Origin: Octopus vulgaris
Taxonomy: Eukaryota
Direction of reading: 5' to 3'
DNA length: 64,000 bases
Assembly: GCA_951406725.2 (NCBI GenBank)
Contig: OX597820.1
Location: 54,746,001 to 54,810,000 of the forward strand
The notes under the pieces were generated by a model. That model ran no database searches. It had not been told where the DNA came from and saw only the letters and a program-made list of their open reading frames with translations. The position numbers and the translations under genes were made by a program. Positions 23,701 through 44,770 of this stretch are shown here, piece after piece. How positions within the stretch are numbered: the stretch's first letter is position 1; each line of letters begins with the position of its first letter.

Positions 23701-24643
23701 GTTTTCAATAAAGCAAATATAGCTTATTCCAGGTATAGTAAAACTGGTCATGCACTGGTTAATTTTGAAAATAACGAAAAATATTTTACAATATTTTTCA
23801 TTATTATTAAACCAATAATATGAAATTTTTAATTTAGATCACAGGAAGTCTGTAAAGATGATCTCTGGCAGACTGGTATCAGAAGCAATATTTACTTCTC
23901 TCTCTTTTTTTTTTTTTTTTATAGAAAACAAAGCTATAGGTGTGATGAAGCCTGGCCACTGTTTCACCATTGAACCCATGATTTCTGAAGGTAAGTGGAT
24001 TTAGAAGTACTTTCAATGGGATTTCACTATGGCCCTTCCAACCTTATGTGATATTCTCTCTGGTCCTAATTTCAACTCTGAAAATTATTGCAAGCATTAC
24101 AATATTGACCAGACCATCAAATGTTGTCATATACCGCTGGTCACAATATGCTTTGCATTGACTTAACTTTTAGAAGAATAGTGTTGACAGTGACTTTGAA
24201 GTTTCAATTTGCTTAGCCGTCATCAGACTGTAGTATATTTGAGTTCATCTTGGTAAATTTACTTTCCCTGGGGTTGGAGCTTTGTTGGATGATAATTAGG
24301 TTGGAGGGTAAACTCTTGAGTTTTTTTTCTTTGAGAACATTCATCTATAACATAGCCAGGATTCCATCATAGTAAACACTTGGGTTTTCTGTTAAAGCCT
24401 AGAAAAAAGTAAAACATATATATGTATTTGAGATTATTTTTCTTTCCCTTTAATTTTTCCTTTTCATCTCATTAAGGAACATGGAGGGATGAAACTTGGC
24501 CTGATGGTTGGACTGCTGTCACACTTGATGGTAAAAGGTCAGCTCAGTTTGAACATACGCTTCTTGTCACTGAGACTGGCTGTGAAGTGTTGACTAAACG
24601 ACTAACAAATGATGGACAGCCGCATTTTTTCGACCAGTTGTAG
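10349..24643 (+). CDS. METAP1: Methionine aminopeptidase 1, exons 2-13 (5' exon not in window)
   Basis: join(10349-10400,10528-10607,11807-11867,14600-14691,16837-16920,19094-19161,20865-20935,21807-21938,22330-22435,22813-22850,23925-23990,24477-24643) gives one open frame with GT-AG introns. Motifs [44 protein letters not shown] and SAQFEHT show all five metal ligands. Confidence 0.97.
10528..10607 (+). CDS. METAP1: METAP1 exon 3 ([27 protein letters not shown])
   Basis: ctttcag acceptor, gtaaac donor; PW..Y.FTG.LRP motif. Confidence 0.92.
11807..11867 (+). CDS. METAP1: METAP1 exon 4 ([20 protein letters not shown])
   Basis: tttcag acceptor, gtttgt donor; RPDYA motif; 61 bp. Confidence 0.92.
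14600..14691 (+). CDS. METAP1: METAP1 exon 5 ([31 protein letters not shown])
   Basis: ttttag acceptor, gtgagt donor; EGMRL.CR motif. Confidence 0.94.
16837..16920 (+). CDS. METAP1: METAP1 exon 6 ([28 protein letters not shown])
   Basis: tatcag acceptor, gtaagt donor; GVTT.EID motif. Confidence 0.95.
17024..17385 (+). mobile_element. tRNA-headed SINE (GGCTGTGTGGTAAG family) with internal TG microsatellite
   Basis: A/B-box head (GGTTCAGTCCC), conserved body and GTAAAAGA tail. Paralogues at about 15948-16208, 25321-25530, 39805-40085 (-), 45068-45448, 55108-55558 and 56618-57056 (-). Confidence 0.8.
18023..18470 (+). mobile_element. Two tandem SINE copies (GAGCTGGCAGAA family)
   Basis: Two consecutive head-to-tail copies, each ending in an (ATT)n tail. 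Confidence 0.75.
19094..19161 (+). CDS. METAP1: METAP1 exon 7 ([23 protein letters not shown])
   Basis: tacag acceptor, gtaagt donor. Confidence 0.95.
20865..20935 (+). CDS. METAP1: METAP1 exon 8 ([23 protein letters not shown])
   Basis: gtgtag acceptor, gtaagt donor. Confidence 0.95.
21807..21938 (+). CDS. METAP1: METAP1 exon 9 ([21 protein letters not shown]...AINE)
   Basis: ttctag acceptor, gtatgt donor; overlaps ORF 21818-22039; contains two Asp metal ligands. Confidence 0.96.
22330..22435 (+). CDS. METAP1: METAP1 exon 10 ([35 protein letters not shown])
   Basis: ctctag acceptor, gtaagt donor; His ligand. Confidence 0.96.
22813..22850 (+). CDS. METAP1: METAP1 exon 11 ([13 protein letters not shown]), 38-bp exon
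   Basis: ctttag acceptor, gtaagt donor; phases match both neighbours. Confidence 0.94.
23925..23990 (+). CDS. METAP1: METAP1 exon 12 ([22 protein letters not shown])
   Basis: poly-T followed by atag acceptor, gtaagt donor; TIEPM ligand. Confidence 0.96.
24027..24307. repeat. 281-bp direct repeat, copy A (last METAP1 intron)
   Basis: Ungapped match to 27269-27549 with 5 mismatches counted by eye. Confidence 0.93.
24187..24231 (-). ncRNA. Minimal type-I hammerhead ribozyme motif (copy A)
   Basis: Minus strand: ACAGT-CTGATGA-CGGCTAAGCAAATT-GAAA-CTTCAAAG-TC-ACTGT. Perfect 5-bp stem I, canonical core, near-palindromic stem III and a GUC cleavage triplet; stem II is weak. Confidence 0.65.
24477..24643 (+). 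CDS. METAP1: METAP1 terminal exon 13 ([55 protein letters not shown])
   Basis: Polypyrimidine tract plus AAG acceptor; TAG stop at 24641-24643. Confidence 0.96.
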
Positions 24644-24787
24644 CAGGAGTGTTGTTGGACAAGCAGAGAAATTCAAAGATTTTTTTTTTCCTCCACTTCT
24701 GTTCCTTCTTTTCTGCTTCATTAGAGACTATTACTACTACTACTATTACTATTAACAATAATAATAATAATACAAAGGAGGAAGATG

Positions 24788-24793
24788 AATAAA
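24788..24793 (+). promoter_or_regulatory. Candidate METAP1 polyadenylation signal
   Basis: AATAAA 145 nt after the stop, followed by a T/GT-rich tract (caggtttttttttattgtttt). Confidence 0.5.
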
Positions 24794-25684
24794 GTACTGT
24801 AAAAATTAATCAGGTTTTTTTTTATTGTTTTATATATATTATCCCTGTTTTAATCTTTTTTTAATGAATCTGTACCATCCGAATGTGGTTGATGCCAGTG
24901 CCTCCTGTGTCAGTGGCATGTAAAAAGCACTATCTGAATGTGGTCAGTGCCAGGGCTGCCTGACTGGCTCCTGTGCTGGTGGCATGTAAAAAAGCACCCA
25001 CTACACTCTCGGAGTGGTTGGTGTTAGGAAGGGCATCCAGCTGTAGAAACCTTGCCAGATCAAATTGGAGCCTGGTGCAGCCGCTGGTCAAACCGTCTAA
25101 CCCATGCCAGCCTGGAAAGCGGACGTTAAACAATGATGTATATTGTTGAAGCAGTTTCTAAGTCATCATCGTTTAATACCCACTTTTCCATGCTTGCATG
25201 TGTCACAGAATTTGTTGTGGCAGATTTTCTATGGTTGGATGCCAACCCTCAACTGTTTCCAAGCAAGGTAATATTTCCCTCATGGCTATGCATGTTTTTC
25301 ACAGAAGATCAGCAAACAACGTGTGGTAAGTAGCTTGCTTACCAACCACATGGTTCCGGGTTCAGTCCCACTGAGTGGCACCTTGGGCAAGTGTCTTCTA
25401 CTATAGCCTCGGGCCGACCAAAACCTTGTGAGTGGATTTGGTAGACGGAAACTGAAAGAAGCCCATCGTATACATGTATATATAATGTATATGTGTGTTT
25501 GTGTGTCTCTGTTTACGTCCCTGTAACTTGTAATGTCAACAGCAATATATTGTCACTGATTTACAACAAACAAAGGAGCTAGTTGTAAAATCTCATGAAG
25601 AGATCAGAATAGTAACTCTACTAACAAGTAAAGTCAATCACCACATCATAGTGGCTGTTCCATTTTGACCCCAGGAAGATCTTT

Positions 25685-26220
25685 GGATCTTTTCCTTTTG
25701 AACGGCACATGTCAACACAATACCCTTCCCCAACCCCTAACTCTAACCCTAAATCTAAAATAGATTGATACTAGGGTTATAATTATGGGTGATATTTTCA
25801 TTTGACACCGCTAGAAAAAAATCCTATTTTCCATAGCGGTGTCGTATGAAATTGTCACCCATAATTATAACCCTAGTATCGATCTATTGCATTTCAATCT
25901 ATTTTAGATTTAGGGTTAGGGGTGGGGGAAGGGTATCTTTTTTTTCTTCGCAAATGTAAATAAACCCAATCTGTTTCTTAAACGAGAGACATATTCATAC
26001 AGCACGGAATGTTTTCACCCCAAATGGAGGTCAGTGATTGGTTTAAATTGCCGAAATGCTTGAAATTAAAGTGGAAATATCTTACAAACTATAGAATTTT
26101 CTCAATAAAGCCAAGAAAAAAATGATGTTTTATAAACACATTCTACCAGTATACAAAGTTTAAAAGTATTTAGTTAACTAGAAATTGTGTTGACATGTGC
26201 CGTTCAAAAGGAAAAGATCC
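25685..26220. mobile_element. MITE with 37-bp perfect TIRs and 8-bp TSD (Merlin-like)
   Basis: TIR GGATCTTTTCCTTTTGAACGGCACATGTCAACACAAT at 25685-25721 and its reverse complement at 26184-26220; TSD AGATCTTT at 25677-25684 and 26221-26228; no coding capacity. Confidence 0.9.
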
Positions 26221-26959
26221 AGATCTTTCAAGACATTCTCACCACCCATCTCTTTAACTGCTGCTGTAATTAAATGTGAGAACTACACACTTCATTAGTA
26301 TCTTCCTCATATCTATTCTTACTTCCTGGAACCATTTCACTTGTTATCAATTCCTTCTTTCTTAACACTGTCCTTTCCATCACTTTTTATATTGATCACT
26401 CTCAACCATGCCTCCTCTCTCATTCGCTTATCCTCTGTACCATGATTACTATTCTGCTGCTCCTTCTCCCTCCTTTTTCTGCACTGTCAATTCTCTCCCA
26501 CTCTTCCAGCTTATATGTATCATGCTTGATGAGATCATTGCAAAGAGCTTCAGGGTTTGTAACGTAGAAGTTTGGGCAATGCAAAGTATGAAGAAATGTG
26601 GCAAAATATTTTTGCTCTTTGCAAAGATAAACATTAGTAAAAACTCTTAATAATGTAGGAAAATACATTGTCTTAGTAATTCTGCACCAGTCGAACAAGT
26701 GTTTTCTGTAATAATGTGTTGTTCGTTGAAAGGGACAGTATGGCAGAAGCTATAGTCAGGGGCCTTCAGGTGACTACAATAACATGCCACTAAGTTGCTC
26801 AAACATTTTTTTTGCAAGATTAAAAATGCCAATGAATTTCTTAGAAAAATATCAAAGAATCAGTAAGTAAATGAAATACTACTTGACAATAAAGACAGGT
26901 TTAATTTGATTTATTTTTTTAATGTCACTGTTTTACTTGCCTATATCTTACATGCTTGA

Positions 26960-27002
26960 TTGTCCCCTCTATGTTTAGCCCCTTGTGGGTAATAAAGAAA
27001 CA
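26960..27002 (+). mobile_element. Extremely 5'-truncated SINE (43 bp) with 18-bp TSD
   Basis: TATATCTTACATGCTTGA at 26942-26959 and 27003-27020 flanks the 3' tip (GTTTAGCCCCTTGTGGG...AAAGAAA) of the SINE family seen at 9947-10184. Confidence 0.85.
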
Positions 27003-27268
27003 TATATCTTACATGCTTGAGCTGTCAAGGATAATTGTTTTACACATTTTCTTTTTTCAGTATCTATCTCTCTGCACCTTAACCTAACACTTAACTTTCT
27101 TAGTGATAAAGATAGATTATACATTTTACTAGTTTACATGTCACTTCAGCCCTTGTTAGGAATCTCCTTCGAGAAGAAAATATAATTAATACACTTGCTA
27201 TAAAAATCTGTTTACCTCTAGTTGGTAGGGAGAAGAGACTTGTTCTCCTTTAGTACCCACCCCACATG

Positions 27269-27549
27269 CTATGGCCCTTCCAACCTTATGTGATATTCTC
27301 TCTGGTCCTAATTTCAACTCTGAAAATTATGGCAAGCATTATAATATTGACCAGACCATCAAATGTTGTCATATACCGCTGGTCACAATATGCTTTGTAT
27401 TGACTTAACTTTTAGAAGAATAGTGTTGACAGTGACTTTGAAGTTTCAATTTGCTTAGCCGTCATCAGACTGTAGTATATTTGAGTTCATCTTGGTAAAT
27501 TTACTTTCCTTGGGGTTGGAGCTTTGTCGGATGATAATTAGGTTGGAGG
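27269..27549. repeat. 281-bp direct repeat, copy B (downstream of METAP1)
   Basis: Matches 24027-24307 at a constant offset of 3242 bp. Confidence 0.93.
27429..27473 (-). ncRNA. Minimal type-I hammerhead ribozyme motif (copy B)
   Basis: Identical to the motif at 24187-24231. Confidence 0.65.
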
Positions 27550-28695
27550 ATGAACTCTGATAGAAAGATGTTATAGATTTTTATTGATTTAAAATTGGAG
27601 TTGTTTTATTGTTCAGAATAAAACTTTTGTAATCAGGTGTGTCATCTTATATATTATTGTTGATGGCTGTTGACTGGGTAATGCAACAATCTACACAAAT
27701 TGTAGAACACAAGTATAGTGTTGGCACAAGACAAGATGCTAGAGCATTGAGATTTTATAGTTAACATTTGGCTGATATCTCAGAATTTTCAAGACAAGTA
27801 GAAAAAGACAGTCTAACAGAAATAGCAGTAAAAACTAGACTGAAGGTTAACATTGAAATATTGTGTGTTGGTGATTAATGCTATGCTATGTTGTGATAAA
27901 AAGTGTCCAATCCGTGGTAATACAGTCTTTTCTGCAGATATAATGCATCTAGGATTACATTAGTCTACCCTCTTTTTTTTTTTCAAGATGCATAGGTATG
28001 TTTTACTGCCATTTCTAGCAGGTCAGGGGACCACAAAAGTGCTCATTATAATGAAGAACTTTCATAGTTGGATTATAGGGCCAACATTCAAACCTCTTTC
28101 TCTTCAAGGAGAGACTTTTTTTTTCCCCACAGAGCATCAATGAACTCAGCATTGTGAGCAAACAAAACAAACACTCATAAGCTTCACAGTGCTACCACTG
28201 CTTACTGCAGTAAACTGTACATAGACTCTGCTGTTTAATGTCTTTGTCAAGGATTTAACACATCACTCCAGCAATTTTTGGCCAACTGTCCAGCACAATA
28301 GCAATTCAGATAGATATAACCAAGACAAAACCAGAAAGTTTTTTTGTTTTTTTTTGATAAGATTCCAATATACTCTCCAATTAAAGGCTCCATTCTACTT
28401 AAAGTTTATTTTTTATCCAATCATACATTATTTAAAGAACTTGTTTGTGCAATACAATAATTAACCTTTAATTGTGTGTGTGCGTGAATTCACATAGCAT
28501 AGTTTGTCATATCACTTAAGTGACAGTCGTAAACTAAAAACAAGCTACATCCGATGTGTTGTACTTCTAAACTATTTCCATTCTGGGAAAATATGAGATG
28601 AGAATCTTATTGATTTCTCAGAATAGTTTTGTAAATAAAGGAATGAAATACATTATGCCAACTTACAATTAATGCATATGCATGTATTTAATATT

Positions 28696-29349: not shown

Positions 29350-30160
29350 GGTGGTCTGATCAATAAGTATCTGGACTGTTGCAATAGTAACAAAGCTAAA
29401 GCACGCAGAGTGAAGCTACTAGACACAGTGACCTTGAACTCGCAGTGCTTGGGAGGAAGGTGTGTAGTGTGTGATCATTGCATTGAGCAGAAAATCTGCA
29501 TCAAATTTTGCCAAAAGCTTGGTGATACCTGCTCAGAGGCCTATGCAAAGTTTCCAAAAAGTTTTCATTATACTTGACACAATCAAGATCTTGTGCAACT
29601 GAAACCCCGAGTGTCTGTTTGGTCAGCTGAAAGCAGTTTTGGCACAAACTTGACAGACACATATCTCATAGCCAAATCTTCAGTGATAATGGACTGAACT
29701 GTAACTAATCTGCACATACTTTGATAACTCATGGATGGTGATTCAATGATCTCTCCTCACAGCTGCATGCACATCTGTGATGTTTTTCTCAGTTCTGCTG
29801 GTTATGGGTCTCCCAGAATGTTCATCAACATCAACATCTTTTCAGCCTTCTTGGAAACATCTGAACCATTCGTACATATGTACAGCTTATTCACTCCTAT
29901 CTATACACTTTCTGCAACTTTGCATAAAGATCTAAGCAGTTATCGCCATGACAACTTTCTTTGTCAGGGTCAATGCAATGATCACACACTACACATGTTC
30001 CTTCCAAGCACTGCTGTAAACAGCAGAAGTGAGCTAGAACGTTCAAAACTTAGTCTGCATGCACAGCAGAATTCAAGGTCAATCTTTGCCAAGCAGCTTC
30101 ACTGTGTGCTTTAGGTTCGTTATTATGGCAACAGTCTGGATACTTATTGATCAGACCTTG
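29350..30160. mobile_element. Rearranged mariner derivative (two inward-facing 5' ends)
   Basis: Inverted termini GGTCTGATCAATAAGTATC...GATACTTATTGATCAGACC with TA at 30161. The + strand reads EQKICIKFCQKLGDTCSEAYAK; the - strand reads YEWFRCF..DEHSGRPITS..EDLAMRYVSVKFVPKLLS. Confidence 0.8.
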
Positions 30161-41830: not shown

Positions 41831-41978
41831 GATCAAAACAGTTCGATTCAAATTCACTGGCACTCTTGAGTTTCAAGCATGATGCTAGTCATCAGACATT
41901 TGGAATTTAAAATGGCTGAAGAGTAGCACCATGCTTGAAACTCAAGAGTACCAACGAATTTGAATCAAACTGTTTTGA

Positions 41979-43099: not shown

Positions 43100-44770
43100 T
43101 TCTCTTTGAGAATATCAGGTTATATGACTTCTGATACCCTACCATGAATGAACATACCTATACTGCCTAACAAACTCTACACAAGGAAGCTCTGAGAGAA
43201 AATAAACAACTTCATAAAGGTACATGAAGTGGAAAGCCTTCTCCTATGACCAAGCAGCATCGTTCTCAGAATCCAATTTCTACAACATTAAGTCTAGAAG
43301 ATTTCCACCCAAGATCAAAGAACTAGAAGCCTTCAAAGTAAACCTCTAGGGCATCATCTCCAAAACTGAAATTCCATTTAGTTCTCTAAACCCTTCCAGC
43401 AAAAGCTTACTTCTGATAGTATTCCATAATCCTATAGGATTAAAACCAGCTACATTTAGCCTAAACAACCAACCTGATTTGTGTTCAAATCAACCAGATC
43501 CAGCCTCTCACACCTACCATACAATGTCATTCTAAAAGTAAACAATCACATCATCAAAGTCTCAAAGCCATGATATAAAGCAAGATTAATTCAAAACAAT
43601 GTGAATAAATAACCATTAGACATGATGGAATAATCTGAATGCTAAAGGGTTGAAAATTCAGATAGGTTTTACTTTATTCAGATAAAACAAGAAATTTATA
43701 TAGGATAGACACAAAAACCTATAACAGACTTTTATCACAGAAAACAATCAGAGAGCTTCTCCTCAAACATATGACAACATTAACAAGGTCAAAGATTTAG
43801 TGAGTGTTTTGTATACAGCAGACAGGATAGAAACCTTAGCTAAGAGGAATGCATTTTTAACCATTAAAGATCACAAACTGAATTTTGCCTCTGTCTTCAG
43901 GTGTTACCTGATTAACGCAGCAAAATCATGGATTGGTCTAGTGAGCAAGCACATATTGAGGAAGATAAATGATGATGATGATATAAGGAAAGCATCCTAT
44001 CAATTCTTATGGCACAACAACAAATGAAGAAATTTCATGGTTCAAAGTAAACCTGGGTAGAGGCAGAACAAGGCTCATCCAATTTAATATAGTGAACATT
44101 TTTATTATCTATATTGAAAGATAGCCAGCGAGCTAGCAGAATCATTGGCACACCAGGCAAGGTGCTTAGTGGCATTTTGTCCATCTTTAATCAAAGTCCG
44201 CCGAGGTCGACTTTGCTTTCCATCCTTTCGGGGTCAAAAAAATAAGTACAAGTTGAGCACTGGGGTTGATGTAATCGACTATCCCCTCCCCCAAAATTTC
44301 AGGCCTTGTGCCTATAGTAGAAAGGATTATCTATATTGATAGAGTTGTTATACAGAACACCTAATTACTCTAAGGAGTTCACTGAAATTAGCAACAGGGA
44401 TATAGATGTAATAATGCCAGAAAGACCCTACTGTTCAATAAAGATTCAGCATGGGTTAAACAACCAGGTCTAGAAGGCCTTTGACATGGTGAAGGGAGGA
44501 TTCAACACCATGGATATCTGTGACCTCATAGGCCAGTTTATGCCTGACATGTTGTGTAAGAGTCTCCTGTCGACCCACTATGGCCTGTATAGAAGCAACA
44601 ATTTAGCTGTCTCTGGAGGTGTGAACAGGTACGCTCAAGATGAGCTTAAGAAAAACTTGATCCACACTCTTATCTCCCTAGGGTTTGAGGTTACTACAGA
44701 CATCAACCTTACAATAATTACTTTCTTAGCTATAATGCTTGATTTAGGCATAGGTTCTTGTTTCACATAA
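43100..44770 (+). mobile_element. Decayed Penelope-like element (RT region), interrupted by a MITE and a SINE
   Basis: AFLTIKDHKLNF..CYLINAAKSWIGLVSKHILRKIN, LIQFNIV, GGFNTMDICDLIG and YGLYRSNNLA correspond to the PLE RT motifs (LKDHK, CRLINPAKSEIG, MGSYDGAEVCELVG, GLYRDDGLA). Confidence 0.75.
44118..44325 (+). mobile_element. SINE with 14-bp TSD inserted in the Penelope-like RT
   Basis: ATTATCTATATTGA at 44104-44117 and 44326-44339. Confidence 0.8.

What the first reader, a model, noticed from the sequence alone, without database searches (positions are those of the whole stretch)
24027..27549. Two near-identical 281-bp direct repeats, each carrying a hammerhead ribozyme core, bracket the last METAP1 exon (retrozyme-like layout)
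Seen: 24027-24307 and 27269-27549 align without gaps with 5 mismatches, far younger than the surrounding repeats. Both carry on the minus strand ACAGT-CUGAUGA-(14 nt)-GAAA-CUUCAAAG-UC-ACUGU, with no difference inside the motif. Known: minimal type-I hammerheads with palindromic stem III typify Penelope-like elements and animal retrozymes, can act as dimers, and tandem copies release circularisable monomers; plant retrozymes have direct repeats of similar size with one hammerhead each. Inference: an antisense transcript cut at both GUC sites (24192 and 27434) would release a 3242-nt RNA complementary to METAP1 exon 13 and its 3' UTR. The repeats could also delete that exon by unequal recombination. 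Caveats: stem II lacks its closing pair, so activity is doubtful, and a plain local duplication explains the layout equally well.
Basis: partly seen in the sequence, partly recalled or inferred. Interest (0 to 1): 0.75.

Follow-up and report, generated by a model that had tools for sequence, protein, structure and literature searches.

The report
Decayed Penelope hammerhead, locally duplicated
The two repeats are the worn-out tail of an old jumping gene plus 140 bases of its neighbourhood, likely copied once by DNA repair into a nearby intron; the self-cutting RNA motif they carry is predicted to be dead, so this is an ordinary relic and likely not a working retrozyme.

Summary
The duplication is real: 290 bp, 7 mismatches, junctions seen in independent DNA runs. 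The motif is a true hammerhead relic, but the layout is not a retrozyme. The 290-bp unit occurs only twice and is a composite: the 3' end of a dispersed Penelope-like element (PLE, Hydra-clade features), a piece of another repeat, and flank. Copy B runs 85 bp further into the element. Copy A is a truncated duplicate in the last METAP1 intron, without target-site duplication, and is spliced out normally in 4 of 4 RNA runs. The spacer holds no PLE sequence. Against intact family copies, this hammerhead has lost stem II and its stem III palindrome, largely by CpG decay, and is predicted inactive. The more interesting point is at family level: the family's original core was CCGAUGA (C4), as in a young sister family with 4,880 motif matches, while 66 of 67 hammerheads beside related elements from other sources have U4. 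The textbook CUGAUGA seen here is likely a deamination product. The scan had already noted a CCGAUGA core in another element of this genome.

The parts
27269..27558 (.). Copy B, the likely donor of the 290-bp duplication
   Evidence: family match continues beyond it
24027..24316 (.). Copy A, the likely derived insertion, inside the last METAP1 intron; no target-site duplication of 4 nt or more
27409..27643 (-). 5'-truncated 3' end (pseudo-LTR region) of a decayed Penelope-like element with Hydra-clade features; about 16% from the family majority
24167..24316 (-). Part of that element carried in copy A
24187..24231 (-). Decayed minimal type-I hammerhead, copy A (C17 at 24192)
27429..27473 (-). 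Decayed minimal type-I hammerhead, copy B (C17 at 27434), identical to A
24093..24170 (.). Fragment of a second, unrelated dispersed repeat inside the unit (27335-27412 in B); SINE-like is a recalled label
23991..24476 (+). Last METAP1 intron, GT..AG, 486 nt, spliced in 4 of 4 RNA runs
24477..24643 (+). Last coding exon of METAP1; AATAAA at 24788

Best explanation
Copy B is the 5'-truncated tail of an old Penelope-like retroelement lying antisense behind METAP1, and copy A is a 290-bp piece of it plus flank, likely pasted once into the last intron by DNA break repair; the hammerhead in both is predicted to be inactive. Shown: the composite make-up of the unit, the continuation of B into the family, the family's link to decayed RT plus GIY-YIG reading frames, the mutations in the motif, normal splicing across A. 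Inferred: insertion of the element tens of millions of years ago, CpG deamination after methylation, a templated insertion a few million years ago, and no function. Because the motif is antisense to METAP1 it never appears in the pre-mRNA, so it would be neutral.
For: Only 2 of 43 matches cover the whole 290 nt; most others cover the hammerhead half (804 candidates, 40 scored) and a few the separate second repeat. B matches the family to 27643, 85 nt past the repeat; A stops at the repeat edge. Family copies are variably 5'-truncated, often carry a head-to-head inverted copy and often end in microsatellites. At four loci (L098, L140, L143, L144) family sequence abuts broken reading frames that match a 539-aa RT/GIY-YIG-like frame (tblastn E 1e-30 to 3e-4). 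No such match and no family DNA in the 2952-nt spacer. Hammerhead fold +4.8 kcal/mol against -3.9 for an intact copy; stem III self-duplex -3.4 against -12.5; stem II G-U, G-U, C/A. A relaxed descriptor finds 67 motifs in 78 related loci and none in the window. All three CpG sites of the motif are decayed here. RNA contigs of 4 runs from 2 studies join across copy A at the splice sites.
Against: No empty site was seen, so the direction B to A rests on the truncation argument. No microhomology or filler proves the repair route; a 6-bp inverted match at A's right junction is only suggestive. A PLE hammerhead that cut only with its protein present has been reported (PMC11167929), so folding energies do not exclude cleavage. 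The RNA runs are unstranded contigs and only guessed to be RNA. The 3242-nt spacing is close to the size of a native unit of this family.
Confidence: 0.85

Rival explanations
1. Copy A is a retrocopy: a read-through transcript of B was reverse-transcribed in trans by a younger PLE, starting in the 3' flank.
For: A has the shape of a 5'-truncated copy with extra 3' flank; PLE RT starts internally without homology (PMC11167929, parts 1-2 read); a younger related family exists in the genome; short inverted match at A's 5' junction.
Against: A landing within 3.2 kb of its donor is very unlikely for a genome-wide insertion; the site is not a microsatellite; A's end lies in foreign sequence, not in the family's own tail.
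Confidence: 0.08
2. The pair works as a retrozyme-like cassette: an antisense transcript is cut at both GUC sites through a dimer fold and releases a 3242-nt RNA against METAP1.
For: Core letters, stem I (5 bp) and the GUC site are intact; the duplication is shared by runs of four organism labels; minimal hammerheads cut weakly as dimers (PMC4209133).
Against: Stem II is broken and the dimer stem III weakened; identity inside the motif is expected by chance; the unit is a two-copy composite; animal retrozymes are 170-400-nt tandem units (PMC7229834 passages); U4 here is likely decay.
Confidence: 0.03
3. The duplication is older and kept similar by gene conversion.
For: Present in several organism labels whose flanks differ by about 1-4%, similar to the 2.4% between copies.
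Against: 2.4% (95% interval 1.0-5.0%) fits one event shortly before those lineages split; no extra process is needed.
Confidence: 0.04

Closest known systems
Hydra-clade Penelope-like elements (Craig et al. 2021, PMC8557442; passages, section 11 and part 2 of 59 of the supplement read)
   Same: C-terminal GIY-YIG-like frame, RWK and DKT-like motifs, Cys linker, inverted 5' copies, microsatellite ends, sense-strand hammerhead behind the frame with palindromic stem III of the ACUU..AAGU type.
   Different: All 26 Hydra-clade rows of File S2 have a CUG core; this family has CCG. Its motif differs from the listed Hydra-1_oBim motif. The 3' region is long (over 850 nt with about 200-nt internal repeats); the linker mostly has F for the second C. 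All linked frames seen are broken.
Minimal hammerheads of metazoan PLEs (Cervera and de la Pena 2014, PMC4209133; parts 1-2 of 4 read)
   Same: Type I, 5-bp stem I, unpaired base between A9 and G10.1, palindromic stem III, many solo and opposite-strand copies.
   Different: Family core C4; in this copy C11.1 is U and stem II is lost. The two copies here are not the pLTRs of one element.
Metazoan non-LTR retrozymes (PMC7229834, passages; bioRxiv 10.64898/2026.07.22.740005, part 1 of 5)
   Same: Two type-I hammerheads in direct orientation; repeat of about 300 bp.
   Different: Not head-to-tail tandem, two copies only, 3242-nt period holding a host exon, no evidence of expression.
Plant LTR retrozymes (as described in the bioRxiv introduction; PMC4918200 listing only)
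   Same: Two direct repeats with one hammerhead each around a spacer.
   Different: Type I not III, no 4-bp TSD, B continues past the repeat, the spacer is native gene sequence.
U4C hammerhead variant of a viroid (one passage in Perreault et al. 2011, PMC3088659)
   Same: C in place of U at core position 4.
   Different: There a single variant with much reduced in vitro activity; here the apparent master state of two genomic families.

Membership tests
Non-LTR (animal) retrozyme | Head-to-tail tandem units of about 170-400 nt, each with a complete hammerhead | tested here: not met
   Two copies 3242 apart with 2952 nt of unrelated spacer
Non-LTR (animal) retrozyme | Unit dispersed as a family | tested here: not met
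   Full unit 2 of 43 matches; halves belong to different repeats
Non-LTR (animal) retrozyme | Expression as self-cleaved linear and circular RNA | not testable with these tools
   Only unstranded contigs were offered
LTR retrozyme | Type III hammerhead in LTRs with 4-bp TSD around an inserted body | tested here: not met
   Type I; body holds the spliced last exon; B continues past the repeat
Minimal PLE hammerhead (as a working ribozyme) | Core boxes, UH site and stem I | tested here: met
Minimal PLE hammerhead (as a working ribozyme) | Stem II of 3 or more pairs at its base | tested here: not met
   G-U, G-U, C/A; no fold of the region; fails relaxed descriptor. Met in family copy L045
Minimal PLE hammerhead (as a working ribozyme) | Palindromic stem III for dimer formation | tested here: inconclusive
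   8 of 10 pairs left, -3.4 against -12.5 kcal/mol
Minimal PLE hammerhead (as a working ribozyme) | Self-cleavage | not testable with these tools
   bench test
Penelope-like element (parent family) | RT plus GIY-YIG frame linked to the hammerhead repeat | tested here: met
   Broken frames at L098, L140, L143, L144; RT and nuclease labels rest on motifs read by eye, since Pfam and PDB gave no hit
Penelope-like element (parent family) | 5' truncation, inverted 5' copies, short tail | tested here: met
Hydra clade | RWK, DKT, CxCx5C linker, CxxC and CxH in the nuclease | tested here: met
   Among 120 homologues RW[KR] 85, DKT 102, CxCx5-6C 107, YRDD 118; remnants show IRWK, SDKI, CNFx5C, CxxC, CKH; linker only partly met
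Hydra clade | Placement in a phylogeny with named Hydra families | not tested
   No named reference proteins were fetched

The most novel reading that the evidence does not exclude
Two Hydra-clade PLE families of this genome spread with a working hammerhead whose core is CCGAUGA (U4C), one to thousands of copies, and CpG deamination turns dead copies into the textbook CUGAUGA. Standard descriptors would then pick the decayed copies, like this one, and miss the intact ribozymes. The C4 master state is well supported (about 0.9); cleavage by it is untested.
Probability: 0.55. Interest if true: 0.5.

Novelty: new member of a known kind. Interest (0 to 1): 0.25.

Why it matters
The locus itself matters little: a neutral relic and a local duplication. 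It is a useful warning that two hammerhead cores in direct repeats need not be a retrozyme, and that a perfect core can be made by decay. The family-level C4 core gives a natural, high-copy test of how far position 4 can vary and suggests that CUGANGA-based counts of animal hammerheads are biased in methylated genomes.

Tried and rejected
Rfam: no hammerhead or snoRNA worth noting. Free folding of the motif is no better than shuffles (z -0.27 to 1.45). A reading frame within 850 nt upstream of the motif: none; the frame lies further up. Pfam on 24 frame fragments, on the 539-aa frame and on 4 homologues, and PDB by sequence: nothing significant. Repeats as pLTRs of one full-length PLE: rejected, spacer has no PLE match. 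RNA cover of the copies: depth 0 over the bins holding A and B in 4 of 4 runs, while weak contigs reach about 27140; contigs cannot show absence or strand, so this is not used as evidence. Deletion allele by unequal recombination: not detectable with contigs that break at the repeat, and the joint table was cut; longest perfect run is 111 bp. Empty site: not seen in the listed rows. First metagenome scan with one protein found nothing. A stricter pattern that includes stem I gave only 13 matches (CCG 5, CTG 5, CCA 1, CTA 1, CAA 1), which taken alone does not favour C4.

Full report
Observation. The repeats are real and slightly longer than stated: 24027-24316 and 27269-27558, 290 nt, ungapped, 7 mismatches, 5 in the first 281. 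The minus-strand motif and the GUC positions are as written. The exon between them is the last coding exon of METAP1; its number was not checked. Contigs of 4 RNA-like runs from 2 studies splice 23991-24476 (GT..AG) across copy A. In DNA run X2, from a different study than the best holder, contigs cross both right junctions with 79 nt inside the repeat and break 30 nt inside the left ends; runs X5, X6 and X9 of other organism labels cross B's right junction, and X6 and X9 show about double depth on the collapsed repeat. A's junctions were not among the listed rows for X5. So the duplication is no artefact and likely predates a recent species split.

What the unit is. Of 43 matches to the 290-nt unit in G000 only the two window copies cover it whole; most of the rest cover positions 141-290, at 70-93% identity (804 candidates, 40 scored). 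Positions 67-144 belong to another repeat (480 candidates, 40 scored). Copy B matches the hammerhead family from 27409 to 27643, 85 nt beyond the repeat, while A stops at the repeat edge. B is therefore the likely original. No target-site duplication of 4 nt or more flanks A.

The parent family. Copies are variably 5'-truncated, reach over 850 nt upstream through a non-coding region with about 200-nt internal repeats, end 15-200 nt after the motif, often in microsatellites, and many carry a head-to-head inverted copy. These are PLE traits (PMC8557442, passages). Of 9 long loci fetched one (L098) shows inverted pLTR, pLTR, broken frame and 3' region in order; of 8 fetched, three more (L140, L143, L144) join family sequence to the frame. 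The frames match a 539-aa stop-free stretch elsewhere in the genome and its homologue P0001. Pfam and PDB name nothing, so the RT and GIY-YIG labels rest on motifs: RWK, DKT, YRDD, a Cys linker, CxxC and CxH, which section 11 of PMC8557442 gives for the Hydra clade. No tree was built. Nothing of this element lies in the 2952-nt spacer, so the 3242-nt period only resembles a native unit by coincidence.

State of the ribozyme. Intact copies read stem I 5 bp, core, one unpaired base, stem II GGC/GCC, stem III a perfect 10-nt palindrome, GUC. In the window stem II is G-U, G-U, C/A; the hammerhead fold scores +4.8 kcal/mol against -3.9 for L045, and the stem III self-duplex -3.4 against -12.5. A second family copy tested, L064, also has a weakened stem III (-4.1). 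A relaxed descriptor finds 67 motifs in 78 related metagenome loci, none in reversed controls and none in the window. Against this, a PLE hammerhead was reported to cut only with its protein (PMC11167929, parts 1-2), so energies are not proof.

The core. In 32 aligned copies (34 collected, 2 near-duplicates on C10 left out) core positions 4-5 read TG 14, CG 8, CA 7, other 3, the same symmetric pattern as the two other CpG sites of the motif; the set was found with the window copy, which favours TG. Among 53 best-preserved matches 32 have C4, 20 U4, 1 G4 (counted from the table). Among one-mismatch copies a second CpG transition occurs in 9 of 18 U4 copies and 0 of 25 C4 copies (p 9e-5; 23 of the rows counted by hand). 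A stricter pattern gave an even 5 to 5 split in 13 matches. The younger sister family has 4,880 matches, and 85 of the 100 listed are CCGA. So C4 is the likely master state and the window's CUGAUGA a deamination product. Outside this genome 66 of 67 motifs beside related frames have U4, as do all 26 Hydra rows of File S2 of PMC8557442, though that table came from a CUG descriptor. Three full-text searches found U4C only as a viroid variant with reduced in vitro activity (PMC3088659, passages) and no CCG-core PLE; subscription papers and several supplements were not searchable.

Mechanism and age. Shown: composite unit, truncation, decay, normal splicing, antisense orientation. Inferred: an element of this family inserted behind METAP1 and decayed to about 16% from the majority (JC 0.18); later a break in the intron was likely patched from the template 3.2 kb away. 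The copies differ by 2.4% (1.0-5.0%). If the clock of an octopus repeat study applies (JC 0.2 for 56 My, PMC13282606, 4 passages; the host group is my recalled guess), that is roughly 50 My and 1-7 My. Templated insertion during break repair is established knowledge; I saw only search listings. Unequal recombination could delete the exon, but the longest perfect run is 111 bp and no call could test it.

Verdict. Works like nothing now; derives from a PLE pLTR hammerhead. Not a member of either retrozyme group: tandem units, dispersal and LTR traits were tested and not met. New member of a known kind; interest 0.25, most of it owed to the C4 core of the parent and sister families.

Noticed in passing
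G000, e.g. L137, L138, L145-L156: Young sister PLE family with a 539-aa stop-free RT/GIY-YIG-like stretch and a hammerhead with CCGAUGA core: 4,880 matches within one mismatch, control 0; of the 100 listed, 85 CCGA, 8 CTGA, 5 CCAA, 2 CAGA.
   Followed up: partly
window 41870-41941 and 43155-44746: Head-to-head pair of hammerhead cores of another family, and a decayed Hydra-clade-like reading frame about 1.2 kb away.
   Followed up: partly
window 25684-26221: MITE-like element with 38-bp perfect inverted ends and an inner 62-bp palindrome, high copy in DNA runs.
   Followed up: no
window 29353-30157: Element with nested inverted repeats (56, 45 and 40 nt), MITE-like.
   Followed up: no
window 24477-27140: RNA contigs of the METAP1 3' end stop near 24690-24940, close to AATAAA at 24788; weak contigs reach about 27140, short of copy B.
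   Followed up: partly
window 24310-24323: 6-bp inverted match with a 2-nt gap across copy A's right junction; fold-back priming or chance.
   Followed up: no
L172:1673: The single C4 hammerhead among 78 metagenome loci; its stem III differs from the others, so it may belong to another element.
   Followed up: no
L029, L031, L039, L040 (G000:C10, 2.45-2.83 Mb): Four family copies inside larger near-identical blocks (93-98% in the pairs listed), a segmental duplication.
   Followed up: no
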